The notes: a model not told the origin generated them from the letters alone. Counted from the first letter of the stretch, positions 18,601-62,700 are shown. The stretch: DNA of 64,000 nucleotides from Chaetodon trifascialis (GCF_039877785.1 NC_092066.1:5187152-5251151), one strand, 5' to 3'. Numbers and translations are program-made.

Positions 18601-21600
18601 CTAGAGCAGGGGGCACAGAGAGGTAGTCCATGCCCATCGAGGGGGGCTCCCTCCTGGTCTGCTGGGTCTCTGGCAGCAGGCAGGGGGAGCTGTGGCCTGG
18701 AGCCTGCTCCTGGTCCACCTCCCTGGGAGACAACTGGAAAACAAAAAGCATGTTTCAGTACTTTAATGTGACGCTGATTTTTAAATACTCGACATCTAAA
18801 TAATCTTTAATACGGAGCAAACGTCTTTACCTGCTCCAGCGATGTCTTCCTGGTTTTCTGTGGGATGCTGAGCTCACAGCTGCTGGGTGGAGCTTGTGAC
18901 AGAGTGATGGAGTCTCCACCCTCAAGGTTGCATCCCTGCAGGTCCTCTGAGTAGCTGCTCCTCCGTGAGGTACAGGGGGAGGCCAGGGGGGAGTTTCTAC
19001 GCTTTTTACCCCCAGGGGAGGTGGGCCTCGAGGACGGGGAGAGTCCAAAGTTGATCGTGGCCTCATTCAGCTCCTCCTCCTCCACCAGCAGGGAGTCGCA
19101 GCTGGAGGCGGGGCTGAGCCAGCCACGGGAGGAGGGGCTGGAGGCGGGGCTGGGACTGAGGGAGCCGGGGCATCTGTCGCGGTAAGAAAAGGGATCCAGC
19201 AGGGGGAGGTAGAGACGCTCTCGGTCCCACCCACCACCGCTGCCCATGTCCCAGTAACTGGATATAGTGGGTGCTTTGTCGTCCTCAGGGGAGATGGTGG
19301 TTATCTGGATGCTGGGACACTCCACCACACGAGACTCTGAAACCTGGAGGGAAGATGAGCGTGAGCAAGAGATCGCTTTGATTTCATATTGACTCAGACG
19401 ACAGACAGGAAATGACACATATTCAGCAATTATTTAACAAGCAAAGTTGCAAAAGCTTGCTTCTTCCAGCTTCTCAAATCTCAAAATTTGCTGCTTTTCT
19501 CTAGTTTTCAATATTGGAAATTGAGTAACTTTTAGATTTTGGTACTTTTGTTTTGACAAAAAAGCAACGTGAAGATGTCACATGGCCTGTTTTGGCAAAG
19601 CTGTATTATTATCAGCATAAAGTGAGGCAGGTGAGAAAAGGAACTGCTTAAGTCTCTGATTAAGTAGCTTTGCCTTAGTTCTAAATGAGGCAATCTCAAC
19701 TTGTGACCATTACATCATTGGTGGGTAGCTGTAAAAATGTGTGTGAGTGATAATGTTTGTCATTGTATGGAGAAAGGCAGCATGTGAGTGCTCTGCAAAC
19801 TGTACACAACAGGTGTTCTCACCTGCACAGAGCGCGCCGGCAGGCTCTCATAGGTCCCGCTGAACTCTCTGACGGGGGCTCGCCGCGGGGGCGGGGAATG
19901 CATCCCAGCTCGCTGATTGGCTGAGGGCGGCGGGCTGGGGATGCTGATTGAGTGTCCTGCGTGAGTGGCAGCCGTGTGGTTATCTGTGACTGAGAGAAAG
20001 AATTATCAGACTGAATGCGTGGAGACGTGACAACAACTGGCACCAGAACAGGATTTAGAGAATGAAATAGCAAACATCAGAAGTTCAGAGCACAGACTGA
20101 AAGTGTGTGACAGCACCCACAGTTTGCACTTGTTGACAAAAGATGGTGTTAAAAACACCAATAATCAAATGCTGTAAACATTTACTGTGTGTTCACTTTC
20201 CTAATGCACACCTTTACTTCCACATGGCAGCAATTTATTTTCTGGCTCTTTCTAGTAAGAAAATGCAACATTTTTTTGTTTCATTCAAACACATTTTCTT
20301 TTTATATCACATTTTGTGGGTTTTGGCCTCATGTGACCTCCCATTAATCTTTCCTCACAGCCACAAACTGACAGTTAGCTATCGAAACCTGCTGTTCTCT
20401 TACATCTGGCATGAGAAAGGCTCATTAGATGTCAATCAAACTACTATAAACACAATTTGTGGTAAGTAAAGAATCGTTTTTTATCATCAACACGCATACA
20501 TCATTCATTACGCATCAGTTTTTCTTCATTTGCTGATCTGTAATTGTTGCCATATGCAAAATGCATGCAACTGGAACTCTTCCTCAGGAAGTGCACAGTA
20601 AATAGCTGTGTCTCCATCAGCGTAGTTTTAGGCACTTTTTGAAGTATCACATTAGAAAAGGTTGATGGAAACTGCAAAATCCAAGAAAACTTCCACAGTT
20701 TCGCAAAGAAGTTTTTGCACTCGCTTGATTTTTGCCTTTTTCAAATAAAGAATTAATGCACTTAATAGGAGATGGAAACTCCTTTTCCAATTAAGTTCTG
20801 ACGTAGCAAACCTTTAGCTCACATGGCCGTTCAGCTGTTTCAAAGAAGAGGAAGAAGCTGTTTCTGCTGTTGGAGTCTTCCCGGATAACGTGCAAAAACA
20901 TGGCTGACAGTAGTAAACGTTCATGTGGACCGAAGAGGTGCACACACTTTCTTCTTCTTCTTTGAGGTTTATTGGTGGTTGGTGAACATCTGGTTTTGTG
21001 TCTACTTCTTCTACTCTGTTTTTTTACAACCATGCGTAACATCGCCAATACCACCAACGTGGTGTAGCCTAGTTTATTCGCTCCAAACCGGTCAATTAAA
21101 AAGTGCTTAACTCACAGTATATCTTTCTTTTGCGACATTTCAAAGGTTTCCTTCAGATTTTCTGGACAATTAGATGAAGACACTGCCAATGTCTTTGCGG
21201 TAAGTGCAGCATTTTTGTCACTTTTAATATAAAGACATTTTGGAAAAATAATTATTAGCTTTCCTGCTAAGTGTTGGGTGTTCAGAATGACACCACTCTC
21301 ACATCTATATGATAAATATGAAGCTGGAGCCAAGATGTGGTTAGCTTAGCTTAGCATAGAGACTGGAAACAGGGGGAAACAGCTAGCCTGGCTCTGTCGA
21401 AAGGTAATAAAATCCGCCTGCCTCTAAAGCTCACTAACTGCCACAGTAGGTCTTGAGTGCACAAAAACAAAAGTGTAAAAGTCACATGTTGCAGTATAAA
21501 GGGGGTTGTGTGCTACACTAGCTGTTTCCCTCTGTTTCAAGTCTTTATGCTGAGCTAAGCTAACCTTGACAACATGAGGTGGAGGAACTCTTGGTAAGAA

Positions 21601-46769: not shown

Positions 46770-49700
46770 GTTGGTGCTTGTTTCCCGCTGGAAAGCTAGC
46801 TTGACAGGAGAGCTAACCGCTGTATCTACGTCACTTGCGGACTCGACTCGGGACATGTCTCGGCAGAGAAGCTTAGGGAAATAAATGTGATGCACTTAAG
46901 GTCCGTGCAGCATTTACTGTTGTTGCTGTTACTGTAGGATGCAGTCTTTTTTCTGCCTAAGGTGTCATCGATAACTGTTACAGGTTGAGCTTGTTCGTAA
47001 AAACCGTTAACGTTAAAGCTGTCAACTGTTGACACTGTCAACCGTTTATTACCCAAGTTATAGAGCTCTTGGATGCCTCGGGATGGAATTGGTATTAAGG
47101 ATATCAAACACGCACAGATATCCATGTTTATTAAGTGGAACCACTGTAATACAACAGCTCTGCAATGAAGGCTGGAGGTTATGATCCGTTTCTGTCGAAA
47201 GCAGACGTGTTGATACACATTTCTTGTCGTTTGGGGTGCTGTTGAATCAGAACAGGCATGCATTCATTCAGCAAAGCAATATGTAAGTGGTTTAAAAGAT
47301 AAACACATTCATTTCGAATTGCTAGTTGAAATTACAGTATTTGAATCATTACAGTGGTATTAGAGTTTGTACAACCCTGCTCTCACTGTGCTCAGTGTGG
47401 CAGTGGAAAGGAGATGAAGGACAGTGGGAAGCATACCCGCCTTCAGCCTGCGCCTTGTTGGACTCAGCCGTCTCTTCAGGAGAAACCTCTGTCACTCTGC
47501 CTCTGGGCTCTGGGACGTCCTATGAAGTGGACTTGAAGAAGATGGTCCAGATTAATTCTGTCACCAAGTACAAGAGGAAGATTCGCTCGCAGACAGTAAA
47601 AGCAGGTATGTGTGTTTTATGTGTTAAACTTGTGTTTTATTTTCAGTTGTGTCATTTGATTTCTGTCATCCTCCCTGCTGGGATTATCCCACTTATCATA
47701 ATTACTAAAACCTTGCTTCCAGAAAAATTGGAGCACTATAAAACATAAATATAACAGATTGTGATAATTTGCTAATCCCTTTTTAACATAAAAATATATT
47801 TACTGTTTTACCTCATCAACTTCATTGATTTTTCGTCTTTTATTCTCTGTTCAGAAAGTGTGAATGTTGCTGTTGATTTGACTCCTCATAATGGGACACC
47901 AGTTCAAGTTAAAGAGGAAGAAGAGGAGGCGAAGGAGCAACCTGTAGCTAAGAGGAAGAGAGGGCAAAACAAGAGCCAGACAAAAACTGAAGAAACGGCC
48001 ACAGAGGCAACAAAAAGTGAAGGTACCATAGATCTAATTTTCATGTATGTTGTCTATGTAGTAAGACAGGTTAAAGGGACATTGTATTACCCGTGCTTCA
48101 CATTCGATGTCAGTTGACCTTATTAATGTTTTTTCTCTGCTTCTTTGGATGTTTAGCAGAGGTTGTGAAGACGGTGGTCATGAAAGGAAAAGCTCCAGTC
48201 GACTCCGAGTGCAAAGCCAAACTTGGAAAGGTGCAGTATCTACATCCACACAAGATGCGAAACTCATGTTTCTGACAAGTTCTGTCAGCCACACCTTTGT
48301 CCTGTGATGTCCTTGTGTTCTTGTTTTAACCTACACTTAACACCTGTGCTTTGTATGAACTCGTTCCTAAATCACTGTTGTCTTTATAAACAGTATAAAA
48401 CATTGTAAAAAACACAGTGAAGAAGGAAATGAGAAGTTTACAGTACATTTTTAATTTCCTGCTTTCAAGATCAGGTACATTTACCGTCATATTTATTATT
48501 GATTGTTCAATTTCGCTTACAGGCTCATGTTTACAGTGAAGGTGATGATGTTTACGACGTGATGCTAAATCAGGTAAAATATTTAAATTCAAAAGCTGTC
48601 GTCTGCATTTCCATACTGAGTGGTGACTGACTGACTAAAATAGTAATTGTAAATATTTTGATAGATATTCCAATCACAGTCAGCAGTTTCTTGAATGTGA
48701 TCTGTGAAAACAGAAATCGAGTGACGGCTTGAAAAGTATTTTATTTTCATTTTACATTTTGATTTGTGGGAAAGTGAGTCGATTTTTAGACTTGCAGCAA
48801 ACGCTTTGCGTCTTATCATGCAGACAAATCTTCAGTTTAACAACAACAAATACTACCTGATCCAGCTGTTGCAAGACGACAGCTCCAAGGCTTACAGTGT
48901 GTGGATGCGATGGGGCAGAGGTGAGTTTATGTGAGCATATTTGATGTGTGTGTGTGTATTTACACAGGAAGTTAACACAAGCTGCACTTTGGAAGCTCTT
49001 TTCTAAAATGTAAACTAACTTATTAGATATATTTTGGCGGTTTCTCTCTTGTTTGTTTCAGTGGGAAAAGTGGGTCAGAGCAGTCTGTCATCTTGTGGTG
49101 GAGACCTACTGAAAGCAAAAGATATCTTCAAGAAAAAGTGAGATTGTGCAGTTAAAAAAAAAAAAAAATTCCAGATGTCTCACATTGAGGTGAGTTCAGT
49201 AAAATTCTGAAACTTGTTTTTGCCACAGGTTCTTTGACAAAACCAAGAATGAGTGGGAACACAGAGTGAGTTTTGAGAAAGTAGCTGGAAAATATGACAT
49301 GGTGTTCATGGACTACAGCACAGATGAAAAGGCAAGGAGCAATGCACAGCCAACGACCTATAAACCTCCTCAATAGCTTCGTAATAAGGAGTTGGCAGCT
49401 TGGAAATAGCTGCCATTGAACTGAAGTTGAGGTCTGTCAGTATGAACATTAATATATTTCACTGGTACAGGAGGAAAACCAGACCACAGTGGATGCAGCA
49501 CCTAAAAAGAAGAACTCCCAGCTGGATGTGAAGATCCAGTCGCTTCTGGAGCTCATCTGTGACATCAAAGCCATGGAGGAGTGTGTGCTGGAGATGAAGT
49601 TTGACACCCGGAAAGCTCCTCTTGGTCAGTCAAAATCAAAGCAGCAGAACGGGGAATTTGTCCTGTTATACTCTTTCATTTTATATTGAGCATATATCCT

Positions 49701-52456
49701 TTATGCATATTTAAGTTGCTACAGTTTGATCAAAGATTCAATAAAACAAGATACTCGAGTCATAATTTTAGCTGCAGTTGTGCCACCTGACTGTGTTAGG
49801 AGATTCAGCTGGTGACAAACATGTAAATAGCATTTCAAACCTTTCGTGACATCACATTTCAAATTCTTTTTCTTTCTACCTGCAGGCAAGCTGACCACCG
49901 AGCAGATCAATGCAGGCTACGCGGCACTGAAGAAAATTGAGGATTGTTTGAAGAAGAAGGGCAGCAATCGTGAGCTGCTGGAAGCATGCAACCAGTTCTA
50001 CACCCGCATCCCTCATGACTTTGGGTAGGGAATGTGTGGCTGTATTGTTAGAGAGATGCACTAATGCTGTTGGAAAAGAGATGTCTGAATCGATTGTACT
50101 TTATTTTGTGCTAACTTAAAGATATAATCCTCCAGGTTGAAAACTCCTCCAATCATCCGGACAGAAGATGAGCTGAAGGAAAAAATAGCACTGTTGGAGG
50201 TAAAAAGGGCTCTCTGCTAATGGATGTCTTCACTTAAATCTGTGGTCCATACTATAATATCTATGTTTTTTTAATCGTATTTCTTTTTTCCAGGCTCTGA
50301 GTGACATTCAGATAGCAGTGAAAATGGTCCAGTCCAGTGAAAAGAGTGACGAGCATCCTCTGGACAGACAGTATCGCTCCCTCCAATGCCAGCTGCAGCC
50401 TCTGGACTCCAGCAGCAACGACTACAAGGTCAGTGTTTGGCTTCTCATACACCGACGGTAAGTCAGTCAGGATGTTCAAAACATTCACTTTGCTCTTGGC
50501 TCACTAATATTCACAGTTTGTAGGCTGATCTGTAGGTTCTTGGTGTGTTAGACTGTCAAGGCATATGAATGAAACGTAATGCTTTTCTTGAAAACTTTCT
50601 TCTTCTCTGTGTGAAGGTGATAGATAAGTATCTACAGTCCACTCACGCCCCCACCCATTCTGACTACACCATGACCATCCTTGACATCTTCTCAGTGGAC
50701 AGAGACGGGGAGAGCAACAACTTCCTCTCACAGTTACACAACAGGTAAGACACAGTGGGCCTAGTGTTTGTATAGACTGTCAGTGCACCTGGAGGCTCAT
50801 AGCAGCAGATGTTCATGTTCCCTCAGATGTTGAACTGTGGTTCCATATTTTCCTGTATTACACCTGACAATGATGTAAATAAAAACAAGGTGCTGTCTCA
50901 CATAACCCATGTCTGTCTGCCTGCTTGCCAGGACTCTGTTGTGGCACGGGTCCCGTTTGTCTAACTGGGTCGGCATCCTCAGTCAGGGGCTCCGAGTGGC
51001 TCCACCTGAAGCTCCTGTCACAGGTTACATGGTAGGATGGATGGCAGAATGAAATTATCTATAAACTACAAGGAGTTTTTAAACCTATATTTTATTCCAG
51101 CATTAACAATTTCCCTGTTTCTCCTTCGTCTAGTTTGGAAAAGGTGTCTACTTTGCTGACATGTCTTCAAAGAGTGCAAACTACTGCTTTGCCAATCAGC
51201 ACAACCACATTGGCCTGCTGCTGCTGTGTGAGGTGAGATCATCATTGGCAAAGAACAGTCCTCTAAAAAAGTTTGAAGTTGAATGTGCGACGTGTTTGAG
51301 GATGCATACATGCTCTGTGTATGACGGCATTTGCAATTATGCTCTCTCTTACCTGGGAGGCAGCGTGTGTTTGGTGAAGGTGTTTCAGTCACCAGTTGAG
51401 CTAATTTCTGTGGTTCTCTGATTTGATGATTTACTCAGGATATATCTTTGTATGGAGCTGTTGTAATGCTTTTCTAAATACCTGATAAAGGTCGAGCACA
51501 TGAAACTTCATGAATAAGTAAATAGTTTGTCGGCTGTTGAGGTAAGCTTAAATTTCTTGACTTATCCTCCGAAGTTCCAGTAGTTGGTGCTTAGGGGCAG
51601 TTTATTTCATGTCCTGTTCACCTGCCCGTACAAGTCCACAACTTGTGTTAACAATAAAACCAACAGCACCTGAACATCATGACACCTGTTGGGCCTAAAT
51701 GTGGTGCAGAAGTGTTTCAACGTCCCTGCTGTATGTCTGTGTGGTCGCAGGTCGCTCTGGGAGACTGTAACGAGCTGCTGGATGCAGACTACGAGGCCAA
51801 CAATCTGCCTGATGGAAAACACAGCACCAAGGGCCTGGGACAGACCGGACCTGACCCCAAAAACTCTGTCACGCTGTTAGTCTGTCTCGTTACGCTGATA
51901 CAGTTCATACAGGCCAAACATTGATTTAACTGTGCTCACTGTTACACAACAAAAATCATCCCCTTATCTGAGAGGGGGACTTTGTTAATTACATTAGCAA
52001 AGAAAAATTCAGGTTGATGAGCACAGAGTGGGAATAATTGCTGGTTTACTTTGTTCTCTGTAATTGGAAACAAAATCTTTGGGTTTTGAACTGATGGTTG
52101 CTAAAAACAGGACTCTAGGACAAATGGATCTGGACTCTACGGATGCACGGCTGCTAATCCTTTTTGACAAATACTCAGTAAACAGAAAACAGTACTAAGA
52201 CAATTAAAACATGTAAAAGTATTGTAAAGAAAAGGCATTTTGTATTAAAACCACCTGATTGGTCCTTAAATAAACGTATCCCTCTCTCTTTCTCAGGAAT
52301 GGTGCGACTGTGCCGATGGGGCCGGGGGTGAAGACGGGGGTGGGTAAGCGTAACAGTTACTCCCTCCTCTATAATGAGTTCATCGTTTACAACCCTGCCC
52401 AGATCCGCATGAGGTACCTGCTGCGGATCAAGTTCAACTACTCTTCACTGTGGTGA
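46697..52456 (+). CDS. parp2: Poly(ADP-ribose) polymerase 2 gene span, 17 coding exons, 651 aa, with an additional N-terminal WWE-domain exon. Exons: 46697-46769, 47396-47605, 47855-48022, 48157-48230, 48523-48573, 48824-48920, 49062-49137, 49228-49330, 49471-49624, 49886-50024, 50136-50199, 50294-50428, 50617-50744, 50932-51031, 51134-51232, 51751-51875, 52297-52456.
   Basis: Colinear with human PARP2 from [16 protein letters not shown] and [17 protein letters not shown], through the WGR segment [38 protein letters not shown]. It continues through [23 protein letters not shown] and [13 protein letters not shown], then the catalytic core [70 protein letters not shown], and ends [28 protein letters not shown]. 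The summed exons give an integer 652 codons. Without the 210-nt WWE exon the product is 581 aa (human 583). Confidence 0.9.
47396..47605 (+). CDS. parp2: parp2 exon 2: WWE domain. It is 210 nt with phase 1 at both ends, so skipping it preserves the reading frame.
   Basis: Acceptor tgtgctcag, donor GCAG|GTATGT. Encodes [70 protein letters not shown]. The W-x-W...W-x-x-Y pattern followed by a Y-x-hydrophobic D-L/F...Q-x-N...R/K-R-x-I-R block is the WWE-domain signature. Human PARP2 has no such region. Confidence 0.7.
47855..48022 (+). CDS. parp2: parp2 exon 3: basic/acidic linker with a KRKR nuclear-localization-like stretch.
   Basis: Acceptor ctctgttcag, donor GAAG|GTACCA. Encodes [56 protein letters not shown]. 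Confidence 0.75.
48157..48230 (+). CDS. parp2: parp2 exon 4.
   Basis: Acceptor ggatgtttag, donor AAAG|GTGCAG. Encodes [25 protein letters not shown], matching human KGKAPVDPECTAKVGK. Confidence 0.85.
48523..48573 (+). CDS. parp2: parp2 exon 5.
   Basis: Acceptor tttcgcttacag, donor TCAG|GTAAAA. Encodes [17 protein letters not shown]. Confidence 0.85.
48824..48920 (+). CDS. parp2: parp2 exon 6: WGR domain.
   Basis: Acceptor cttatcatgcag, donor AGAG|GTGAGT. Encodes [32 protein letters not shown]. Confidence 0.9.
49062..49137 (+). CDS. parp2: parp2 exon 7.
   Basis: Acceptor ttgtttgtttcag, donor AAAAA|GTGAGA. Encodes [25 protein letters not shown]. Confidence 0.85.
49228..49330 (+). CDS. parp2: parp2 exon 8, ending at a GC donor (GC-AG intron).
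   Basis: Acceptor tgccacag. Encodes [35 protein letters not shown]. There is no GT between AAG and the in-frame TAG at 49373; AAG|GCAAGG matches the GC-donor consensus. Confidence 0.8.
49471..49624 (+). CDS. parp2: parp2 exon 9.
   Basis: Acceptor cactggtacag, donor CTTG|GTCAGT. Encodes [51 protein letters not shown]. Confidence 0.85.
49886..50024 (+). CDS. parp2: parp2 exon 10: helical regulatory domain.
   Basis: Acceptor tctacctgcag, donor TTTGG|GTAGGG. Encodes [46 protein letters not shown]. Confidence 0.85.
50136..50199 (+). CDS. parp2: parp2 exon 11.
   Basis: Acceptor taatcctccag, donor GGAG|GTAAAA. Encodes [22 protein letters not shown]. Confidence 0.85.
50294..50428 (+). CDS. parp2: parp2 exon 12.
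   Basis: Acceptor tcttttttccag, donor CAAG|GTCAGT. Encodes [45 protein letters not shown]. Confidence 0.85.
50617..50744 (+). CDS. parp2: parp2 exon 13.
   Basis: Acceptor tctctgtgtgaag, donor ACAG|GTAAGA. Encodes [42 protein letters not shown]. Confidence 0.85.
50932..51031 (+). CDS. parp2: parp2 exon 14: start of the catalytic domain.
   Basis: Acceptor ctgcttgccag, donor CATG|GTAGGA. Encodes [34 protein letters not shown]. Confidence 0.9.
51134..51232 (+). CDS. parp2: parp2 exon 15: nicotinamide pocket (GKGVYFAD..S motif).
   Basis: Acceptor ctccttcgtctag, donor TGAG|GTGAGA. Encodes [33 protein letters not shown]. Confidence 0.9.
51751..51875 (+). CDS. parp2: parp2 exon 16.
   Basis: Acceptor gtggtcgcag, donor CGCT|GTTAGT. 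Encodes [41 protein letters not shown]. Confidence 0.85.
52297..52456 (+). CDS. parp2: parp2 terminal exon. The stop codon is at 52454-52456.
   Basis: Acceptor ctctctttctcag. Encodes [53 protein letters not shown]. An AATAAA lies at 52903-52908. Confidence 0.9.
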
Positions 52457-52902
52457 GGCTGTGCTAACAGTGCAGCTGTGAGATTGGCTGTCTACAGAGC
52501 AGGGGTGATATCTCACGCAGCCACTCGTCGTGTGCAGTTAACACTGTTCAGATCTTGGCTTTGGGGATAGGATGTTCAGCCGATAAACAGTTAAATATTT
52601 TTCAAGCAAAAATGCCAAAAGTTACCGCTGCTTTTCTTTGTCATATGTGCCATCTTTGGGTTTTGAACTTTTGGTCGAATGAAACAAGCTATTTTAATAT
52701 GTCAACTTGGGCTGTGGAAAACTACAGCTGGCGGTTTTCACTATTTTCTGACATTTTATAGGCAAAACAAATCGGCAGATTGATCGTTACTTGCAGCCCT
52801 ACAGTGATATCCACAGTGAGGCTCGGCAGATCCAAAGTTCATACAACTCACGCATTATTTAAATGGGAATGTGAATTTTGAATTCAAGTAAGAAAAACAC
52901 CA

Positions 52903-52908
52903 ATAAAA
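52903..52908 (+). terminator. parp2: parp2 candidate polyadenylation signal AATAAA, about 450 nt after the stop.
   Basis: caccAATAAAacagc. Confidence 0.4.
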
Positions 52909-53590
52909 CAGCTTCTACGTTCTCCAGTGACACGACGATTTCATCTTTGCTCTTTTTGAGTCAGAAAATGATGTTGGACCCTGTAAAATGACGGTGAATG
53001 CTGCTTTAGAGTGAGGCTTCGGGTTTGGTGAAGGTAAAACATGAGGATGGATCCATGTGATACAGTAAGAAGAAAATATGTTGAATATTTTGCACTATTT
53101 TTTGTCCCTGTTGCTTTTTATTGTCCACGTCCTTTAAACAGTGTAAGCTGTATGTTATTGCATGTGGAATAGCATTCATTCATTATGTTTTGATTTCTGT
53201 TGCGGTGCTTTATGAAACATGAACGGCCTTATTGACCTACTGGACTATCACTCTCAGCCTTTCATGGGTAAACGCAATGATTTGGAGGATCTTTAGGCAG
53301 GTTTGATGTGAGCATTTATACTGAATAATTACCTAAATGTTATTGAATGTTTCCTGTTTTATGTCAACAATCTCGAAATTAAATGAAACAACGCAGTACA
53401 ACAATTTTTCATACTGATTTTTATTTGTGTAAAACTGAGACAAAGACAGGACTCTATCAAAACACTGATAATCCATATAATTTCAGTATATACATAATAA
53501 AAGTAATAATAAAGGACATTTTTGTTGTGGGTACAGTTTGGAGTGTCAGTCTGTGTGCAGTAATGTGTTTGTGTACATGCGTGACGTGCA

Positions 53591-53725
53591 TCACCTCCTC
53601 CCCAGCAGGTAGAGGAAAATCAGGACGATGTCCAGGTAGATGGTGAGAGCGGCGGTGATGTATTCCTCTGGATCCAGACGGTAGCTCATCATCCCCATCA
53701 GCAGCTGACAGTCAATCATCAGGAA
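53591..53725 (-). CDS. TMBIM terminal exon: TM7 and C-terminus. The stop codon is at 53593-53591.
   Basis: Acceptor tctgtctcag. Encodes FLMIDCQLLMGMMSYRLDPEEYITAALTIYLDIVLIFLYLLGRR*. A minus-strand AATAAA candidate lies near 53425-53420. Confidence 0.85.
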   Translation of the reverse strand, partial: FLMIDCQLLMGMMSYRLDPEEYITAALTIYLDIVLIFLYLLGRR

Positions 53726-56700
53726 CTGAGACAGACAGACAGGAAGGGAGGGAGAGGATGAGGAGGAGGAGAACGTTTAGGACAGGGTGAGAGATTAGCA
53801 CCAGATAAGAGCACATCATGACATCCTCTGTTTTGACATGTCACAGCAGGAAGAGCATGCGTGAATGATAAGTGAATGCTGGTTGAATTCCATTCGGCTG
53901 CTTCAGTTTCAGCGTCGTGGTGTTGTTTGTGCTGGCTCACGGTCACACTGGGACACTTCAGTAGAGCAAAGCCATCGTTAATATTATGAGCAACACCCGT
54001 GCTGTTCCCACTGTGACACTGAGCCTACGTTTACACGTAGCAGGGTATTTTGGAAAACGGATATTTTGGCCCCTCGAGCACATCATAACTGTGCCAAACC
54101 TATGGGTGCAAGTGTAAACATAGGTCGCTCACATGATGTTAAGTATTTTCAGTCGCATGTTGTGACGTTTCGGAACCTAAAACGCTGTTTAACCCAGTTT
54201 ACACGCCGACAAATAACTGCCGTTTTCAGAAATCTCCACTTTGGCCAGAGTTTTTAAGAATGATCATTTTCCGTGACTCTGAATCAAGTCTGTGAAAGCG
54301 TGTTGGTCTCATTTAAAATGCTGCTGTGGATGTTACTTTGTGATTGGATGAATTCCTCAAAAATCAAACTTATTAAATCCGCTCTCTGGCTTCTGGAGCT
54401 TTGGCCGTTGCACTCGCTCAGACACTTTATTTGAATGTTTTACAGCTGTGAGCAGCTCCTCCATTTCCTCTGTGCATTAAAGGCGCATTCAGAAATCAGC
54501 CATATTTAGTAGACGACTGTCTCATTTGAGTACAATTCATTTTCTCACTTTTCCCGAAAAAAAAAACCATGCCTAGAATCTGGATGTCGGATGGATTTGG
54601 GACATGCTGCGTATCTAACTTCCACCATTTAATTGAGTGCATCCACTCCTTTCTGCTAACAATCCCACAATGCAATCTGTCACATTTTATTCACCCAGCA
54701 GCCACTGTTGTGCTGCTCTACACCTGCCAATGAACCATGAGAATATCTTTTACATAAGGAGTGATGAGCGAATGAACAAGCCTGCCAGTAGGTGACGATA
54801 AAGTCTACATCAACCATACCAGAGAAGAACACTCTGAACATAGCGGACAAGGCCTCAGACATTATTCACAGGTGTTTTCATCTATTTTGCCAGATTAAAT
54901 CTCTTTTCAAGGCTGCCATCGTATGCACACTGTTCATTCGTCATCACTTTTCTGTTGAAGCTGTCAAAGACAGCACCTGTGTGGGAGGGCAGGGCCTTTA
55001 ATGCGTTTGATGAAGAAACTTATTCCACCGCTGTTCTACACTCCTTTACTAAAACCAAGTCACAAGGTCGGGGTATGTTGTTTTTTGTTAACTTACCAGT
55101 GAATACAGCAGAGCGCCCAGACATCCATAGGCGACATCAGCGATGTAGGAGTAGTAGAAAGTGCAGAAGAACCCGAACATGATCACGTCCACAGCCAGAA
55201 TCAGCAGAACACCATACCAAACGGTGAAATCAAAACGAGTCTGCAAGGAACACAAACAGACTGGGTGAGTGCTGGACAGCGTCCAGAGATTTCATTCTAA
55301 AGCTTTTCCATATGTAACATCCCCATAATTCAAAACAGATCAAAGTATTGATTCATCAGTTTAGTAGTTTTCATTTTTATCTTTTCCCAAATCATTTCAA
55401 GTTCTTTACATTAAAGACAACAAGTATCAAGACAGTACACGACACACATTTACATTTTCACATATTTCTACATTTTTTTTTTTTTTTTAACACTTATTTT
55501 TTTGTTTTTACCATAAGACAACACACAAACGAACAAACAAAAGAGGTCTGGGACAATATGTGATAGAATCTATAGGTAAAATAAAAAGGGAAAACAGTCA
55601 CAGGTACATATTATCAAGTTCAAGAAGTGTCCAGGAGATACAGCAGTCACTCATTGTCTATTCGGTAACAACAGTCCCACTTGTTCCACAATATATCTCC
55701 CTTCTCTTTTTGTAGTCGGAGGTTAAAAGTCATTTTCTCCATCAGACGGATAGAGTTGATCACACTGGTAAGGGCAGTTATAGTGGGGGGGCTCTTTTGA
55801 AGCCAGCATTTAGTTATTGTTTTCTTACTGGCCACAGTAAATATCTTCAGGAGATATCTGTCGCTTTTACAGAGGTCTTGGGGGATGCGCCCAAGGCACA
55901 GCACATTGAAAGAGAGGCCAATGTCCAGGTCCAGGATTTTCAATATCAAGCTACTCACTCCCCTCCAAAAGGGCTGAACCCGCGGGCACAGCCAGAAGAT
56001 ATGCGCATGATCTGCCCTATCAGAACCACATTCCCTCCAGCAAAAGTGTTGTATCCCACTTGATTTTGATTTTTGGTAAGGGGTAATAAAAAAACGAATC
56101 AAAACTTTCCAGTAGAAGTCTCTCCAGAAGAATAAACTTGTAGTAGTAGACCGGGTTCCCCAAGCATTGCTCCACATATCCTCAGTTATTGCAATGTTTA
56201 ATTCCTTTTCCCAGCGTTCCTTTATATAACCTGTTGAAGATTTATTCATTGAAATAAAAGCCTTGTATAGGTTACCCACGATGCCTTTGGTGTTCTTTAA
56301 GTTATAAGCATCAATAAATACCCCAATTATTTTGGAGTGCTCCAGAGAGTCATTACTCCTAACTTCTCTTAGAAAAAAGTTGCGGATCTGTAGGCACCGA
56401 AAGAAATCTCCTTTGTCCAGCTCATAAGTCATATTTCTACATTTTTATCATTGGATTTTTCTCATTTCTTTGCTAATACTTCATTTTTTCATTTGCACTT
56501 CTATTTCTACTCTTATTCTGGTTATTATTCTTCATTGCACACAAGCCTCGTAGTACAGCCTTGAATAAGCCACCCTGCAGCTTAGCAGCAGCAGCTGGGT
56601 TCCTAACGCAGTGTTTAACACAGGATTTGCACATAATGACTCAAACTCAACACTTTTTTTTTTTTTAAAATAAGGCCTAGAAATAAAAAGGGAGAAGCTG

Positions 56701-59700
56701 CTGTGCTGTGGTCTTGTTAAGTTCAGAGATGTTGTTTGTACAGAGGATACAGCTGAGTGAGAACAGCTGGATCTTCACAGGTAGATAAGACTGCAGCTAA
56801 TGATAATTTCAACACTGAGCTAATCGAGAAGAAATGTCTTTGGCTCACAGTTTCCTCCAGAAATGTCTTGTTTTAGTTGACTAACAGTACAGGACTCAAA
56901 ACTTAATAACTCTGCAATGCTCAAATCTCTTAAATGGAAAAACTGGATCAAAGAATTTTGGACTTTTTTTTATAAGATTATATATCAGTTATCAAAATAG
57001 TTGCTGATTAAATGTCATTAAATGTCAGGCATCTGATCAGTGCCACGTTCACGTTCGGCCTCTGTTTTCTAGAACTTGCATCATGTATCATCCTAAAGTC
57101 AAATATGGAAACAGTTGTAACTTCAACGCTGACACATAAAGCAGCTGAGACAGCTCTGCTTTAACGGACAGAGCATGATGGGAGGTTACAGAAGCACTTT
57201 GAAATGCTGTGCTTCGGCTCAGCCTGGCTGTCTGACCTGTGCGGAGAACGCAATGATGGCAACAGAAATGGCCAAAGTTGCTCCCATAGTGATGACAACA
57301 GCGGTGGTGTCGTGGAAGGAGGCGACGGTTCCCACCATGTATGACAAACTCAGGGTGACCACAACCTGTCGGCACAAAATTCAGCATATTAAACATATTC
57401 AGTACTGTTCAGAAAAGCTCTCTAAAGCTTAACTCCTTCAAACAGAGAGTCCCCTGTTAGGGTCCAGATTGTTTATCCATCCATTATCTATACCGCCTAT
57501 CCCTTTCGGGGTTGCGGGGGGCTGGAGCCTATCCCAGCTACGATGGGCGGGAGGCGGGGTACACCCTGAACCGGTCGCCAGCCGATTGCAGGGCAACATA
57601 TAGAGACAGACAACCTTTCACGCTCACACTCACACCTAAGGAGTCACAAATTAACCCAATGAGCATGTTTTTGGTCTGTGGGAGGAAGCCGGAGTACCCG
57701 GAGAGAACCCACGCATGCACGGGAAGAACATGCAAACTTCACACAGAAAGGCCCCGCCTGACCCGGGGATCAAACCGGCAACCTTCTTGCTGTGAGGCAC
57801 GCGCACTACCTGCTGCGCCACCGTGCAGCCCAGATTGTTTATATCTTTGAATATTTAAAGTCTTTTCTATTGCAGTGTTTGTGCCAGGCTCTGCATGGTG
57901 TACTACCAATCACAATACAGGAAGTGCCTGTCCTAATTTAACATACCAACAAAACCTCAGTGGCTCAGAGTGAATCTGCAAGCATGTGAAAACAACTTTA
58001 GAGGAAACTGAGGTTTTCATCTGGAGACAATAAAAACAAAAGAACAGAACTGCTGATAATGGACCAGTTTCTCAGAGGCCAATTAAACGACTCAGAGGTC
58101 TAAATGTTAAAGAAAACCAAGCAGTGATTAAAAAAATATGGGCCAAAATTTGTTATCAGTACTACTTTAATGGTTTTTGTCTCATACACATCTTTTGAGT
58201 ACTTAGATTGAATACCTTTGCTTCTCTTTGGGCAGTTGTTTGTGTTTTTGACTGAGGAGCATTTAGCTGAGGCAGCAGTCTGCCTGCTTGACCAAAATAT
58301 TTTCACTTCTCTCTGTAGGATGTGACCTCAGGTGTTTCATATCCAAAATACTGTATTTCCTTATACAACTGTGATTCTTCTTTCATATTGTCTAACTGTC
58401 CCTCCAGTCTGTTAAATATTGTGTTATATAGATATTAATGACAAAATCTACTGTATATTGTGTCAAATGAATTTCCCCATTAGATACAGTATTTGGGGCT
58501 TTACGCTCCCATGTTTGTCACCCACCAGTCCCACGATGTTCCAGGGGTGACGCCGACTGAAGGACTTGCAGCAGTTGAGGGCAATGGCGACCACGGCGAA
58601 GACGATGAAGGAGCTGAGGTAGGCCCACAGGTTGGTCTGCACTGCGTCTTTGACCACGCTGGAGAAGGTGAACACACACACCACGCTGAAGGTGAACAGC
58701 AGCTGGAGAGTCAGGATGCTGAACACCTGCACAGAAAACAAGGGGCTTCATTAAGGGGTCCAAGCAGTGAAGCTTTGCTGCTGGGACTCCATTGTTTTTT
58801 ACTCTTCTTCTTCTACACTAAAAGTGTTCATACAGCAAAAACCGTAATACCAGCACGTTTGACCTAACGCTCCAGAAACACTGATGCTTTGATGTGCTTT
58901 GCAGTGTCAGTACAGGGGAAGAATATGTCTTATGCCGGTCCAAGTGGTGCTAGGATGAAGTCAAAGTAGACTAAACCTCCTGAAAACATTATTGTAAACA
59001 TGTACATGTTTATAAAATTAATAATATGACACAGATTTAGTTCAAAACCAGTCAAATGAACACTTCTGGAACAAGAACGACTTGTCCAGGAGTTAGAGAG
59101 ACACTTGTCATGTAAAAGTCTTGTTGTTGTCCTTGAACCAGCCATGATGGCTTCGGTTATTATGACCGTAAACGAGACACTGAACCTCTACCTGCTTGTT
59201 CAGTTAATCGTTTTTGAATGAAGGAAATTAATGCTTTGCACAAATCTCAGATTGATTTATTTTCAAAAGATTTTACAGGCCTGAGCAGTAGAGGGTCCTG
59301 ACACTGGGTTGAGAAATGGTGGTGCAGATTGCAAAACATGAACACAGTGAATACTGTTTACACCTAAAAGCAGCACGGCTCACACAGTTTTGTCATATAT
59401 AGAATATGCAGATGTGCCTGAAGTCGTTAAAACTCACACAAACCTTTCTAACAAACCCTCTTCTCACTGTCTTGTCATCAAAAGAAGATGAAGCTGTGAG
59501 TGGAGTTGTTTCTCACGGGGCCTCTGGGCAGATGTCACGGAAAGACTCATACCCAGACGTAGTTATTTCGACTTTGGGTGGAGGGTACATTGCCGGGGCT
59601 GCAGAGTAAGGTGGAGGTTGTTGGTGGTATGACGGTGGTGGTGGTGGTGGTGGTGAGGATGCATCATAACCAGGAGGGTCCTGTGTCTCTTTGGATATGA

Positions 59701-59722
59701 GGCGGTCCGCTGCATCAGACAT
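53591..59722 (-). CDS. TMBIM (transmembrane BAX inhibitor motif / Lifeguard) family protein, GRINA/FAIM2/TMBIM1-like, gene span, 6 coding exons, about 279 aa. Exons on the minus strand: 59553-59722 (or 59542-59722 under the micro-intron model), 59444-59493, 58526-58726, 57237-57365, 55097-55240, 53591-53725.
   Basis: SSFDDKTVRRGFVRKVFSILTLQLLFTFSVV matches FAIM2 FSWDDQKVRRVFVRKVYTILLIQLLVT. CCKSFSRRHPWNIVGL matches GRINA CCGDFRRKHPWNLVAL. VTLSLSYMVGTVASFHDTTAVVITMGATLAISVAIIAFSAQ, TRFDFT...YGCLGALLYSL and FLMIDCQLLMGMMSYRLDPEEYITAALTIYLDIVLIFLYLLGRR* match the TMBIM C-terminal motif D-T-Q-L-L-G...LSPEEY...LNIYLDII. The N-terminus carries PPxY motifs, as in TMBIM1/GRINA. Which paralog this is cannot be decided without a search. 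Confidence 0.75.
55097..55240 (-). CDS. TMBIM exon 5: TM5 to TM6.
   Basis: Acceptor ttccttgcag, donor CACTG|GTAAGT. Encodes TRFDFTVWYGVLLILAVDVIMFGFFCTFYYSYIADVAYGCLGALLYSL. Confidence 0.85.
55476..56432 (-). mobile_element. 5'-truncated non-LTR retrotransposon (L1/Tx1-like LINE) 3' fragment in TMBIM intron 4: the C-terminal part of ORF2 plus 3'UTR, with a minus-sense poly(A) seen as a plus-strand T run at 55476-55490.
   Basis: The 261-aa minus-strand ORF 55647-56432 ends in the LINE ORF2 C-terminal Cys/His module ...QHFCWRECGSDRADHAHIFWLCPRVQPFWRGV.... An A/T-rich 3'UTR and a homopolymer tail follow. Confidence 0.6.
57237..57365 (-). CDS. TMBIM exon 4: TM3 to TM4.
   Basis: Acceptor ttgtgccgacag, donor ACAG|GTCAGA. 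Encodes VVVTLSLSYMVGTVASFHDTTAVVITMGATLAISVAIIAFSAQ. Confidence 0.85.
57477..57829 (-). mobile_element. Full-length tRNA-derived SINE inserted in TMBIM intron 3, flanked by a perfect 13-bp target-site duplication ccagattgtttat at 57464-57476 and 57830-57842.
   Basis: The tRNA-like end ggatcaaaccggcaacc (reverse complement of the T-arm GGTTCGAATCC region) lies at the high-coordinate end. The identical 13-mer direct repeats abut both element ends. A second partial copy elsewhere in the window shows the sequence is repetitive. Confidence 0.65.
58526..58726 (-). CDS. TMBIM exon 3: TM1 to TM2.
   Basis: Acceptor ttttctgtgcag, donor GACTG|GTGGGT. Encodes VFSILTLQLLFTFSVVCVFTFSSVVKDAVQTNLWAYLSSFIVFAVVAIALNCCKSFSRRHPWNIVGL. 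Confidence 0.85.
59444..59493 (-). CDS. TMBIM exon 2.
   Basis: Acceptor ctccactcacag, donor AAAG|GTTTGT. Encodes (P)SSSFDDKTVRRGFVRK with phase 1 in and phase 0 out. It lies only 59 nt below exon 1. Confidence 0.7.
59553..59722 (-). CDS. TMBIM coding exon 1: Pro-rich N-terminus with three PY motifs (PPGY, PPSY, PPPY). The 3' boundary is unresolved.
   Basis: The ATG at 59722-59720 lies 1 nt after an acceptor (cctccag|aATG). Encodes MSDAADRLISKETQDPPGYDASSPPPPPPPSYHQQPPPYSAAPAMYPPPKVEITTSG. The strong donor GG|GTATGAG at 59552 is out of phase with exon 2. Confidence 0.55.
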
Positions 59723-62700
59723 TCTGGAGGAAACTGTGAGCCAAAGACAAAGTTCAGTCAAATAAAAAGATAAACTTATGCAAAAGCAAACACGGGCTGA
59801 TGGGAGACTTTGTGTTTAGGATGAAGCGGGAAGTTCCTGTTTTACATTATTAAATATAGTGTACAATTTACTCTTTACCTTTGGTGTCTGAACTACTGAG
59901 AAGGATGTTTCTAGCCAGCAGCCAGTGTTGCTGATACACTTTAAAGTTGAATAATACTGCAGTCAGTGTCAGCAAGGTGTAAGCCTGTGTGCGGTTGCAG
60001 TTACACCATGTCGAATGTTCATTCAGACAGCCAAAGACAGTCTCTCTCTCCACATTTCCTCTCTGTTGTTGGTTTAATTTAGTGAAACACTGGCAATTTT
60101 TCAGCATCCGCCCACCAGCACGTAAACGGCATCTCCAACCAGAACTGCTGCTGACTGGTTGCTAAAAAATGGAGTAAACACTAGGAAGTGAAACTTGAGC
60201 TGTGGGGCCACTTCTCTTACAGCAGACTGTGGGGAAATCAGTTTTGTGTCGTGTCCTTCAGGTTTTAAAAGCTGCATGTGGTCTAATAGTCATGATAACC
60301 AATAAAAATCCATAGATTTCATCCAAAGCGCACATTCTGACTCGTCACAGCAGGAAGAGCACAGGTGCTACTAATAATATGAACGATGGCTCTGTTATGT
60401 TCACATGTCCTCGTAATATAAATGGAATTCAGCCATCATTCATTTACTTATCCACACCTCTGCTCTGACCCCTGTGTCAAAAAATGTCTATAAATGAAGC
60501 CATTAAATTACAAAAGCTTTAAACAACCACCTGTCAATGCAGCTAAGTTCAAGTAAAACTACTTCTAAATACATTAGGGTGGACTGGTAATTGTTTTTTG
60601 AGCATTAAACATTGACGTACATGTTCAGTGGCAGTGGCTTTTTCTTCCTCTTCTGATGAATTAACTCAAAATAATACAAATATAATTAGTTTAGAAGGTC
60701 CATTGTTGCGGTTATACTTCCTGGACCTGCCTCCCTTTTAATTCAGATAACTTAAATTAACACAAAAATATCTGATCACCCTAAAGTTTGCTGTCATGTT
60801 GAAAAAAACTAAACACTACAAGCAAATAAAAAAGCAGCAAACAGTAGGATATTTTCTTTTACTTCACACAGCGAATAAGTTCTTTGAAGGAGAATGAAGT
60901 GAGTGTTCTGCTCACCTGTTCTGCTGGATTACAGTCTGATGCTGACAGCAGCGATAGTCCAACACCACACAGAGAGGAATTGAAAAGCCTGTCTGGTGAT
61001 GGTGTCATTTATTCTACCAACCTGTGGTGAAGCGTTTCACTTCCTGTCAGCTTTTGGTCTGTGAGGACTCAGTGCGGAAATGGGAAACTCCACCGTTGCT
61101 TCACAGTAGGTCAGAGGTCATCAAAGTGGGGTCTGGGGACTTCCAGGGGTCCCTGTGCCACTCACACGGGGGCCAATGCAAACCCCGATGTCCAGACTTG
61201 AGCATAATAAGATTATTCACATAAATTATGCTTATTATGAAACTGTCTTCTCTTTTTTACCAGCTCGGTATAAAATCCTAAATTTATAAAACAGTCGACA
61301 AGAAACTCAGCAGAAATGACACGGTAGATGTTCAGAATTCAACTGTTTCTTGCTCATGTTGAAAGTGAAATTAAATTTTCCTTGTTCAGGGAGCTGAGGA
61401 AGATCATGTGATACCATCAAAAGCTCCAGTACGGCCACTTTGTGGTGATGTAGAATTAAGAGGTGAAATGATTAGGCTGAAAATTAATCTAAAACTGTTT
61501 TTATAATCGACTGTTTTATTCTCTTGAAAGACTGAATATGTTTTGGTTTTCAGTTGTTGGACAGATTTGAAGACGACACCTTGAGCTCTGGGAATTTTTA
61601 ATGTGAGTTTGTTGGTTTTTTCATAGCCAAAACAATTAAAAAAAGCTAATAATCATCAGATTAATCAATAGCAAAAATGATCACTGGTTCCAGCTAGGAC
61701 AAAATTAAAGCTTCATTTTCAAAGGCTTCAGTGTTGATAGTTTAGAATGAGGAGAGGAGCTTTAACTCAACTTTAGTCACGTACTAAATAAAATAAGATG
61801 CCGTTCTTTTAAACGAGTAAAAAGTGTCATTTAAATTCTCTCATTAAAATAAAACTTATGGACAGTGTGGTCTGTTTTAGGTCTCGCTGAACATCACAAA
61901 CAACCACAAACGCATCATTGACACTTAAAAACACAAAAGTGACATTCACAAAACATCTCTCACACATATTTATTGTAAAAAATACATATAAAAACAATTT
62001 CTGAGACATACAAAAGATTGGAGCTTAGAAACAGTATATTGAACAGACAAAGACCAAGCCATTTTTCTTGAATTGCATTACATATTTACAATTTAATAAA
62101 TAAAATTCAATTTGTCTTTATACCAGAGTAAAGGCAGATTGTCCATATCTTGGGGATGCAGATACTGTTGTGGTGACTCTCTGAAAAACATTCTCATCTA
62201 ATACATCAGCCTCAATGCGCAGGGCACACAGGGGACCGCTGCCCTGCGATTCAAAACCAAGGATTTAGGGACATTTATACAAAACACCATCCTTGGTTGG
62301 AGAGGAGCAAGTTTACACACAGAGCGTTTAGTTAGCATTGGTAAAAATTGAGGTATTGCACCACACAGCTTAGAGGGGGTAAGAAAGTAAATGAGAGTAA
62401 TGTGGGGTTTTAGATTGTCTATTTTCTTTATTGACAACCCAACACCGCCACCAAACCCCACCCCCCAAACACACACACACACACAAACACCCCCGCCCCT
62501 CCCAGCCAGAGTACACAACATCATAACTTATCACCACAACAAATGTAACATCTAATGATCAATGCAGCTCGTCTTCCGCACACTCTCACACAATGCCCCC
62601 GGTGCACAGACAGACATTTGGCATCATTTTTTTTCTATTCACCAGTACAAAAAATGAGAAACATGCACAGGGCTGCCCTCTAGTGGCGAGACAAGTCGTA

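What the first reader, a model, noticed from the sequence alone, without database searches (positions are those of the whole stretch)
59444..59560. TMBIM gene: in-frame stop and only 59 nt between the PY-motif exon and the WDD-motif exon; candidate 45-nt micro-intron or disabling lesion
Exon 1 (MSDAADRL...PPGY..PPSY..PPPY..KVEITTSG) runs in the same frame into GYESFRDICPEAP-TGA. Just 59 nt after the strong donor GG|GTATGAG comes the conserved exon SSSFDDKTVRRGFVRK (FAIM2 FSWDDQKVRRVFVRK). The GTATGAG...CACAG intron is 59 nt, not a multiple of three, and breaks the frame (GG+C TTC ATC TTC TTT TGA). The only frame-preserving solution is a 45-nt intron, TTC C|GTGACA...CACTCACAG|CT. It gives ...GYESF-P-SSSFDDK..., which aligns well with TMBIM1 SDSFGPGEWDDRK. 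A 45-nt intron is at or below the usual minimum for vertebrate splicing. The alternatives are an assembly indel, an unusual splice, or a partly disabled paralog.
Basis: seen in the sequence. Interest (0 to 1): 0.5.

Follow-up and report, generated by a model that had tools for sequence, protein, structure and literature searches.

The report
Premature stop in butterflyfish lifeguard gene
The supposed tiny intron is ordinary coding sequence: a single uninterrupted exon of a butterflyfish "lifeguard" (TMBIM) membrane-protein gene carries one premature stop codon, most likely a very young loss-of-function allele or, less likely, a base error in the assembly.

Summary
The premise of two exons separated by a tiny intron is wrong. 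In Chelmon, Enoplosus and Pempheris genomic DNA, in 120 annotated teleost "protein lifeguard 1" orthologs, in 17 uninterrupted genomic ORFs and in a spliced cDNA contig, the PY-motif region and the SSSFDDK motif lie in one continuous coding exon (window 59722-59444). The orthologs have a sense codon at the TGA position: Ser in 78 of 120, TCG in the three outgroups, never a stop. The window most likely comes from Chaetodon trifascialis. No protein for this locus is in the protein collection, although a neighbouring gene's RefSeq protein is. The rest of the gene is intact: five phase-0 exons, canonical splice sites, no unusual residues in the Bax1-I domain, and 10 synonymous against 3 non-synonymous changes on this branch. 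Any inactivation is therefore very recent. Best reading: a young nonsense allele giving a 69-aa product and probably nonsense-mediated decay (about 0.7). Rivals are a single-base assembly error (about 0.2), rescue by splicing (about 0.04) and recoding (about 0.04). This is an ordinary finding of low interest.

The parts
59444..59722 (-). First coding exon of the lifeguard-1-like (TMBIM/Bax1-I) gene, continuous from the ATG (59722) to AAG|GT (donor GT at 59443-59442). It encodes the Pro-rich PY-motif N-terminus, a variable linker and the SSSFDDKTVRRGFVRK motif: 93 codons including the internal TGA.
   Evidence: The homologous exon is continuous in Chelmon (L001), Enoplosus (L002) and Pempheris (L003), and 17 genomic ORFs span it.
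59513..59515 (-). Premature in-frame TGA (codon 70). Chelmon, Enoplosus and Pempheris have TCG (Ser) here, and the next codon is GAA against their GAC.
   Evidence: Residues at this column in 120 orthologs: S78 P16 T8 A7 L3 E2 V2 W1 I1, 2 gaps, no stop.
59494..59552 (-). It is not an intron. It is coding sequence for (G)YESFRDICPEAP*ETTPLT(A).
59494..59538 (-). It has a weak donor and is not G-rich. The identical GT..AG pair is present in Chelmon coding sequence.
   Evidence: For comparison with validated ultra-short introns, see PMC4463651.
58526..58726 (-). Coding exon 2 (VFSILTLQ...WNIVGL), phase 0, acceptor ctgtgcag, donor gtgggt.
57237..57365 (-). Coding exon 3 (VVVTLSLS...IAFSAQ), phase 0, acceptor gccgacag, donor gtcaga.
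55097..55240 (-). Coding exon 4 (TRFDFTVWYG...LLYSL), phase 0, acceptor ccttgcag, donor gtaagt.
53591..53725 (-). Coding exon 5 (FLMIDCQ...LYLLGRR plus the normal stop TGA at 53593-53591).

Best explanation
The region holds no intron. It is the 3' half of one continuous first coding exon (59722-59444, minus strand) of the Chaetodon trifascialis ortholog of the teleost gene annotated 'protein lifeguard 1' (si:ch211-284o19.8), a member of the TMBIM/Bax1-I family. On the lineage leading to this genome, the Ser codon TCG of a poorly constrained linker became TGA, and the neighbouring GAC became GAA. Shown: the stop is in the sequence. The exon is continuous and open in all relatives. The locus is the syntenic ortholog. 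The other four exons, all splice sites and the whole Bax1-I domain are intact and show strong purifying selection on this branch. Inferred: translation stops after 69 residues (MSDAADRL...PEAP), which carry only the cytoplasmic PY motifs and none of the membrane domain. The stop lies 69 nt upstream of the exon-1 donor with four junctions downstream, so by the 50-55-nt rule the mRNA should be a target of nonsense-mediated decay. There is no in-frame ATG after the stop until transmembrane helix 3, so re-initiation cannot rescue the protein. The allele is therefore a null. Because the domain shows no decay, the mutation must be very young. It may be fixed only recently, or it may be a segregating or heterozygous null captured in the reference individual. 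Other TMBIM paralogs would presumably make such a null tolerable (general knowledge, not tested here).
For: The stop and frames are read directly from the sequence. Orthologs read straight through the region, e.g. Chelmon GYESFRDICPEAPSDSTPLTASSSFDDK. The DNA alignment shows CCG TGA GAA ACA against CCG TCG GAC (T/A)CA with no gap. Annotated ortholog gene models have the same five coding exons, with a continuous first exon of 291-300 nt. Seventeen genomic ORFs from other species run from the ATG through FVRKV into the intron without a stop. The spliced cDNA contig L004 (Logan SRR27393483) retains the segment. Full-length ~293-aa proteins on ~1-kb Logan contigs (P0030, P0040), which by their size I infer to be cDNA, also contain it. 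Collinearity with the Chelmon and Enoplosus loci through exons, introns and the neighbouring PARP and Rsm22 genes shows orthology. Species: the window ORF 4736-5617 is identical to XP_070830557.1 of C. trifascialis. No protein for this locus is in the collection: the best hit is 82% identical, and exact look-ups of the truncated, X, S, W, C, R and 45-nt-intron models are all negative. The domain is intact: Pfam Bax1-I scores 83.8 bits against a cut-off of 34.1, with 0 residues unseen in 120 orthologs and 0 departures at columns at least 95% conserved. dN/dS against Chelmon is 0.158, against 0.16-0.25 for other pairs. Branch counts are 10 synonymous and 3 non-synonymous, and a Poisson bound puts neutral evolution at no more than 6-17% of the branch. 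The stop is 69 nt upstream of the donor.
Against: No read-level, transcript or population data for C. trifascialis could be reached, so a real mutation cannot be separated from a consensus base error, nor a fixed allele from a polymorphic one. The complete absence of decay downstream is equally what an error or a bypassed stop would give. Absence of an annotated protein is indirect evidence. The protein search returns only hits of roughly the query's length, and the gene-position index did not hold the C. trifascialis record, so the NCBI call for this locus was not seen directly. NMD and truncation are inferred from general rules, not observed.
Confidence: 0.7

Rival explanations
1. Assembly or consensus base error. 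The true sequence has a sense codon, for example TCA. TCG>TCA and GAC>GAA would be real, older substitutions, and only the middle base C>G would be wrong. The gene would then be fully functional.
For: Everything else about the gene looks functional: intact splice sites and frame, no unusual residues, a low dN/dS and a 10:3 synonymous to non-synonymous count on this branch. Only one wrong base is needed. All other lineage-specific changes in exon 1, a 15-nt deletion and a CCA-repeat change, preserve the frame.
Against: The difference is a substitution, not a homopolymer indel, which is the usual error class of long-read assemblies (general knowledge). No other lesion was found in the genes checked in the window: the MYADM ORF is identical to its RefSeq protein, and the GPCR ORF is interrupted by a normal intron. 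The annotators evidently produced no protein for this locus, which fits a stop they could not argue away. The sequencing technology and quality value of the assembly could not be checked with these tools.
Confidence: 0.2
2. Rescue by splicing. After the nonsense mutation, a cryptic GT..AG pair inside the exon is used as an ultra-short intron that removes the TGA in frame. Candidates are the 45-nt TCC|GTGACA...CACAG|CT span, giving ...GYESF-P-SSSFDDK..., or another of the in-frame pairs. This would be an 'intronization' of coding sequence that keeps the protein functional.
For: The 45-nt span has GT..AG ends and preserves the frame. It removes only a weakly constrained linker, where substitutions among orthologs are spread evenly over codon positions (14/11/13). 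One ortholog entry (P0018) lacks much of this region. Ultra-short introns of 37-65 nt have been screened in human, and splicing evidence was given for 15 of them (PMC4463651). The absence of decay downstream is compatible with a still-functional gene.
Against: The homologous segment is exonic in all relatives and is retained in spliced cDNA. The same GT..AG pair sits in Chelmon coding sequence, and 23-32 such pairs occur by chance in every ortholog. The donor has C at -1 and C at +5, whereas three of the gene's four real donors have G at +5 and all have G at -1. The span is C/A-rich, not G-rich like most validated ultra-short introns. The real introns of this gene are 717-1996 nt here and no shorter than about 120 nt in Enoplosus. 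The exact 280-aa product is not in the collection.
Confidence: 0.04
3. Recoding of the UGA. This could be translational read-through (inserting Trp, Arg or Cys), selenocysteine insertion, or A-to-I editing of UGA to UGG. Any of these would give a full-length protein.
For: The position tolerates many residues, including Trp in one ortholog (P0021). UGA is the leakiest stop codon (general knowledge). The downstream ORF shows no decay.
Against: No SECIS element or any other Rfam family was found in 52000-60500 at E<=1, apart from one chance-level hit. Orthologs have Ser or Pro here, not Cys or Sec. The context UGA-G-A-A is not the known high-read-through UGA-CUAG motif (general knowledge). The local RNA fold is unremarkable (z = -1.74) with only a 5-bp stem at the UGA, far too short for an ADAR substrate. 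The stop is a derived novelty of this lineage, not a conserved recoding site.
Confidence: 0.04

Closest known systems
Teleost 'protein lifeguard 1' / si:ch211-284o19.8 (GRINA-like LFG subfamily of the TMBIM/Bax1-I family, Pfam PF01027), e.g. Chelmon rostratus P0001
   Same: It has the same five phase-0 coding exons and the same synteny (RING-finger gene, lifeguard, PARP2-like, Rsm22/METTL17). Overall identity is 82%, and the membrane domain is near-identical. It shares the PY-rich N-terminus, the SSSFDDKxVRRxFxRKV motif, and the conserved Asp residues in FLMIDCQ and IYLDIV.
   Different: This copy has a TGA at codon 70 where relatives have Ser, Pro, Thr or Ala. It also has a 15-nt in-frame deletion (the CMYQP codons) and a longer CCA/Pro run in exon 1.
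Young unitary pseudogene or segregating nonsense (loss-of-function) allele subject to nonsense-mediated decay
   Same: There is a single disabling stop in an otherwise intact orthologous gene. The stop is more than 50-55 nt upstream of the last exon junction (69 nt from the first donor). No protein model for the locus is in the collection.
   Different: It shows none of the secondary decay that defines an established pseudogene: no frameshifts, no lost splice sites, and dN/dS about 0.1-0.16. Loss of expression or function has not been observed.
Vertebrate ultra-short introns (37-65 nt; Shimada, Sasaki-Haraguchi and Mayeda 2015, PMC4463651)
   Same: The 45-nt GT..AG span falls in the same length range.
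   Different: Those introns are conserved in length and sequence among related species and are mostly G-rich. This span is coding in all relatives, is C/A-rich and has a poor donor.
Intronization of exonic sequence after a premature stop (Catania and Lynch model; cited from memory)
   Same: A new premature stop is flanked by latent GT..AG sites in a dispensable linker, which is the starting configuration that model requires.
   Different: There is no evidence that the latent sites are used. The configuration arises by chance in every ortholog.

Membership tests
TMBIM / Bax inhibitor-1 family (Pfam PF01027 Bax1-I) | The Bax1-I domain matches above Pfam's gathering score | tested here: met
   83.8 bits against a cut-off of 34.1, residues 89-292 of the conceptual read-through protein, covering profile positions 2-204 of 207.
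TMBIM / Bax inhibitor-1 family (Pfam PF01027 Bax1-I) | An uninterrupted ORF able to produce the multi-pass membrane domain | tested here: not met
   TGA at codon 70 lies upstream of the whole domain, and there is no in-frame ATG before TM3. The locus is a member by descent, but as sequenced it cannot encode the domain without recoding.
Teleost 'protein lifeguard 1' (si:ch211-284o19.8) orthologous group | Best hits to that group, the same exon structure and conserved synteny | tested here: met
   120 listed hits, of which the named ones are called lifeguard 1, lifeguard 1-like, si:ch211-284o19.8 or a GRINA-type name; neighbours are RING, PARP and Rsm22; the window is collinear with L001 and L002 through introns and intergenic DNA; the same five coding exons.
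   The 45-nt span meets this and the 59-nt span breaks the frame. However, 30 such in-frame pairs occur by chance in this exon and 23-32 in the intact orthologs, so the feature does not discriminate.
   The segment is CDS in 120 orthologs and in three annotated gene models. It is retained in the spliced cDNA contig L004. Transcripts of C. trifascialis itself could not be examined.
   The donor is TCC|GTGACA. The composition is A13 C16 G10 T6. Comparison is with PMC4463651 and with this gene's own donors.
Selenoprotein (UGA = Sec) | A SECIS element in the 3' UTR, and Cys or Sec at the homologous position in relatives | tested here: not met
   no SECIS hit in 52000-60500; relatives have S, P, T, A, L, E, V, W or I, never C.
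Established (decayed) pseudogene | Relaxed constraint (dN/dS approaching 1) and multiple disabling lesions | tested here: not met
   a single lesion, dN/dS 0.158, 10 synonymous against 3 non-synonymous changes on the branch, and a neutral phase of no more than 6-17% of the branch.
NMD substrate | A premature stop more than 50-55 nt upstream of a downstream exon-exon junction | tested here: met
   69 nt to the exon-1 donor, with four junctions downstream. Actual decay of the mRNA is not testable with these tools.

The most novel reading that the evidence does not exclude
The gene is still functional in C. trifascialis because the new UGA is bypassed. Either a newly recruited ultra-short intron formed from latent GT..AG sites in the linker removes it, or efficient read-through does. 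The first would be intronization of coding sequence triggered by a nonsense mutation, caught at its origin. Either would explain why the membrane domain shows no decay at all.
Probability: 0.05. Interest if true: 0.6.

Novelty: new member of a known kind. Interest (0 to 1): 0.12.

Why it matters
It matters mainly as a correction. The apparent micro-intron comes from reading a continuous exon as two, so it should not be counted as a candidate ultra-short vertebrate intron. What remains is an ordinary premature stop in one member of a multi-paralog anti-apoptotic membrane-protein family, in a reference genome. If real, it marks a very recent gene loss or a segregating null allele in a butterflyfish. 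That is useful for annotation (pseudogene against low-quality protein), and it is a small natural knockout of a lifeguard paralog. It opens no larger question unless transcripts show that the stop is bypassed.

Tried and rejected
- **Micro-intron models.** The 59-nt model breaks the frame. The 45-nt model was rejected on ortholog CDS, cDNA retention, the weak donor and the chance GT..AG count.
- **Other cryptic splices.** The phase-2 donor GG|GTATGAG to GTGAG|A (90 nt) would delete the conserved FDDKTVR motif, and its acceptor is purine-rich. The new donor CCC|GTGAGA is only 23 nt from CACAG, and joining it to the next exon breaks the frame. Both follow from reading.
- **Selenocysteine and other RNA elements.** The Rfam scan was negative.
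- **A-to-I editing.** The fold shows no long duplex.
- **Re-initiation.** There is no in-frame ATG before TM3.
- **Independent lesions in other species.** P0053 looked N-terminally truncated, but its contig carries the full ORF; the gene caller chose an internal Met. The Eleginops P0072 locus could not be fetched.
- **Same-species or congeneric data.** The N-terminal search gave at most 73% identity. Exact look-ups of seven candidate products were negative.
- **The C. trifascialis record and its gene calls.** These were not on record.
- **Species confirmation through PARP2.** The search returned only hits of similar length to the query and nothing at species level.
- **A second lesion as a sign of a poor assembly.** The GPCR ORF at 32008 simply has an intron.
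- **Literature on the C. trifascialis genome.** No assembly paper was found.

Full report
**1. What is in the sequence**

The feature lies on the minus strand. From ATG 59722-59720 a single frame reads MSDAADRLISKETQDPPGYDASSPPPPPPPSYHQQPPPYSAAPAMYPPPKVEITTSGYESFRDICPEAP. It then reads TGA (59515-59513), then ETTPLTASSSFDDKTVRRGFVRK, followed by GT at 59443. GG|GTATGAG begins at 59552 and CACAG| ends at 59494, a span of 59 nt that shifts the frame. GTGACA at 59538 to the same AG is 45 nt and keeps the frame.

**2. Gene model**

Inspection of the splice sites followed. Together they give five coding exons, all phase 0 with canonical AG/GT sites:
- 59722-59444
- 58726-58526
- 57365-57237
- 55240-55097
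- 53725-53591

The conceptual read-through product is 295 aa. It matches Pfam Bax1-I (PF01027) at 83.8 bits against a cut-off of 34.1.

**3. Relatives show one continuous exon**

The protein search returned 331 hits, of which 120 are listed. The named ones are teleost proteins called 'protein lifeguard 1', 'lifeguard 1-like', si:ch211-284o19.8 or a GRINA-type name. The best is Chelmon rostratus at 82% identity.

Aligned, they read straight across the supposed intron, for example Chelmon ...TTGYESFRDICPEAPSDSTPLTASSSFDDKAVRRGFVRKVF.... I fetched genomic loci for Chelmon (L001), Enoplosus (L002) and Pempheris (L003). The DNA alignment shows no gap at the site. The window has CCG TGA GAA ACA and the orthologs have CCG TCG GAC (T/A)CA. 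Stitching the annotated proteins back onto their loci gives the same five coding exons, with a continuous first exon of 291-300 nt.

A second search with the N-terminal exon found 17 ORFs on genomic contigs of other species. Each runs from the ATG through FVRKV and on into the intron without a stop.

The Logan contig L004 (SRR27393483) is a spliced cDNA, because all downstream introns are gone. It retains ...GYESFMDLRLETPSDTTPLICSSAFDDK.... Full-length proteins of about 293 aa on Logan contigs of about 1 kb (P0030, P0040), which by their size I infer to be cDNA, also contain the segment.

At the TGA column the 120 orthologs have S78, P16, T8, A7, L3, E2, V2, W1, I1 and two gaps, and never a stop.

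**4. The GT..AG pair is chance**

Within exon 1 of this genome, 30 GT..AG pairs bracket the stop with a length divisible by three, and 13 of them are 100 nt or shorter. The intact orthologs have 23-32 such pairs. Chelmon has the identical 45-nt pair, tcc|GTGACA...ACTTACAG|ct, inside annotated CDS.

The proposed donor has C at -1 and C at +5. All four real donors of the gene have G at -1. The span is C/A-rich, whereas most validated human ultra-short introns are G-rich and conserved among species (PMC4463651). The real introns of the gene are 717-1996 nt here.

**5. Orthology and species**

The window is collinear with the Chelmon and Enoplosus loci through exons, introns and intergenic DNA, including the neighbouring PARP-type and Rsm22 genes. 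The PARP gene is PARP2-like. This is therefore the ortholog and not an extra paralog.

The intact single-exon ORF at 4736-5617 is identical to XP_070830557.1, the MYADM homolog of Chaetodon trifascialis. The window is thus most likely from that RefSeq-annotated genome, which belongs to the same family as Chelmon.

No lifeguard-1 protein from that species is in the collection. Nothing above 86% identity was found. Exact look-ups of the 69-aa truncated product, of the X, S, W, C and R read-through products, and of the 45-nt-intron product all failed. I infer that the annotators produced no protein for this locus, but I could not see the record itself.

**6. Is the gene decaying?**

It is not. 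In the 215 residues from FDDK to the end, the window has no residue unseen in the 120 orthologs and no departure at columns at least 95% conserved. Nei-Gojobori dN/dS against Chelmon is 0.158 for the domain, against 0.16-0.25 for the other pairs.

Polarising with Enoplosus and Pempheris, the C. trifascialis branch carries 10 synonymous and 3 non-synonymous changes in the domain, and Chelmon carries 10 and 7. A Poisson bound allows neutral evolution for at most 6-17% of the branch. TGA and GAA are derived on this branch, since all three outgroups have TCG GAC. The other lineage-specific changes in exon 1, a 15-nt deletion and a longer CCA run, preserve the frame.

**7. Alternatives to a plain null allele**

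- Selenocysteine: there is no SECIS or other Rfam family in 52000-60500, and no Cys in relatives.
- Editing: the local fold is unremarkable (z = -1.74), with only a 5-bp stem at the UGA.
- Read-through: the UGA-GAA context is not a known read-through motif (general knowledge).
- Re-initiation: there is no in-frame ATG before TM3.
- Assembly error: this cannot be excluded without reads, and only the middle base of the codon need be wrong. However, it is a substitution and not a homopolymer indel, and the other genes checked in the window are clean.

**8. Mechanism and verdict**

Shown: a derived TGA interrupts a continuous, otherwise conserved first coding exon of the orthologous lifeguard-1-like gene.

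Inferred: translation ends after 69 residues that carry only the cytoplasmic PY motifs. PY motifs are the class bound by the WW domains of Nedd4-family ligases (PMC8509885 abstract). The stop is 69 nt upstream of the first of four exon junctions, so the transcript should be subject to nonsense-mediated decay. The allele is a very young null, either fixed recently or segregating.

Confidence: no intron, about 0.95. Real null allele about 0.7, base error about 0.2, rescue by splicing about 0.04 and recoding about 0.04. This is an ordinary finding. The kind of lesion is well known and the micro-intron is not real.

Noticed in passing
window 59560/59561 (minus strand, between ...GAAATAACT and ACGTCTGGG): There is a 15-nt in-frame deletion relative to Chelmon, Enoplosus and Pempheris; it removes the five codons C-M-Y-Q-P in Chelmon. 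One other ortholog (P0012) has a 6-aa gap at the same place, so this stretch of the linker tolerates length change.
   Followed up: partly
window ~59634-59655 (minus strand): A (CCA)n run encodes seven consecutive prolines and is longer than in the three outgroups. The alignment there is ambiguous, which inflates the apparent substitution count on this branch (columns 28-33).
   Followed up: no
window 59516-59510 and 59467-59461 (minus strand); also 59500-59496: The mutated site reads GTGAGAA, identical to a heptamer 49 nt downstream (the V-R-R codons). That heptamer is also present in Enoplosus and so is probably ancestral. One templated multi-nucleotide event could therefore explain all three clustered changes (TCGGAC>TGAGAA). 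Separately, the new GTGAG is the exact complement of CTCAC 11 nt downstream, whose C is also derived here (column 81). The heptamer occurs 14 times in the window counting both strands. By my own rough estimate, a cluster of three substitutions is not clearly beyond chance, so this remains speculative.
   Followed up: partly
window 55300-56596 (intron 3 of the gene), ORF 55647-56432 minus strand: An insertion of about 1.3 kb is absent from the Chelmon and Enoplosus loci. It carries a 261-aa ORF in the same orientation as the gene. The ORF has no Pfam hit at E<=0.01 and there is no second copy in the window. From memory it resembles the C-terminal part of a retrotransposon ORF2.
   Followed up: partly
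P0072 (Eleginops maclovinus, 'partial', 4 member sequences): Its N-terminus (CILSTTTTTTTVLPRRATSSLLCSPGNAP...) is the +1-frame translation of the PY/Pro-rich region, and it rejoins the normal frame at RDFRDISPEAL. This points to a frameshift or an annotation problem in the same exon in another species. The locus could not be fetched.
   Followed up: partly
L004 (Logan SRR27393483 contig), nt 88-1008: Database protein P0053 (234 aa) starts at an internal Met. The contig in fact carries the full ORF from MLDSEDLL... (ATG at about nt 88), so the short protein is a gene-calling artefact and not a truncated isoform.
   Followed up: yes
P0021 (Scophthalmus maximus), alignment column of the TGA: Turbot has Trp (PEAQWDETP) at the column where the window has TGA. 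The position therefore accepts the residue most often inserted by UGA read-through or produced by UGA>UGG editing.
   Followed up: no
window 1-52500: Other genes in the window include a MYADM homolog (4736-5617, +) and exons of a gene with an NFAT-like Rel-homology motif (about 17610-19418, -). There is also a GPCR with one intron after ...NHTLPRH|gtaagt (32008 onward, +), an SDR39U1-like exon (39910-40377, +), a PARP2-like gene (about 46900-52456, +) and Rsm22/METTL17 (about 44500-45900). From memory this gene set resembles human 14q11.2-q12, which has no TMBIM gene, so this lifeguard paralog may be absent from mammals.
   Followed up: partly
tool behaviour: the search for homologous proteins returned only proteins in a length band near the query: 101-172 aa for a 101-aa query, and 126-398 aa for a 227-aa query against a 651-aa target family. 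Absence of hits of very different length, such as a 69-aa ORF, is therefore weak evidence.
   Followed up: no
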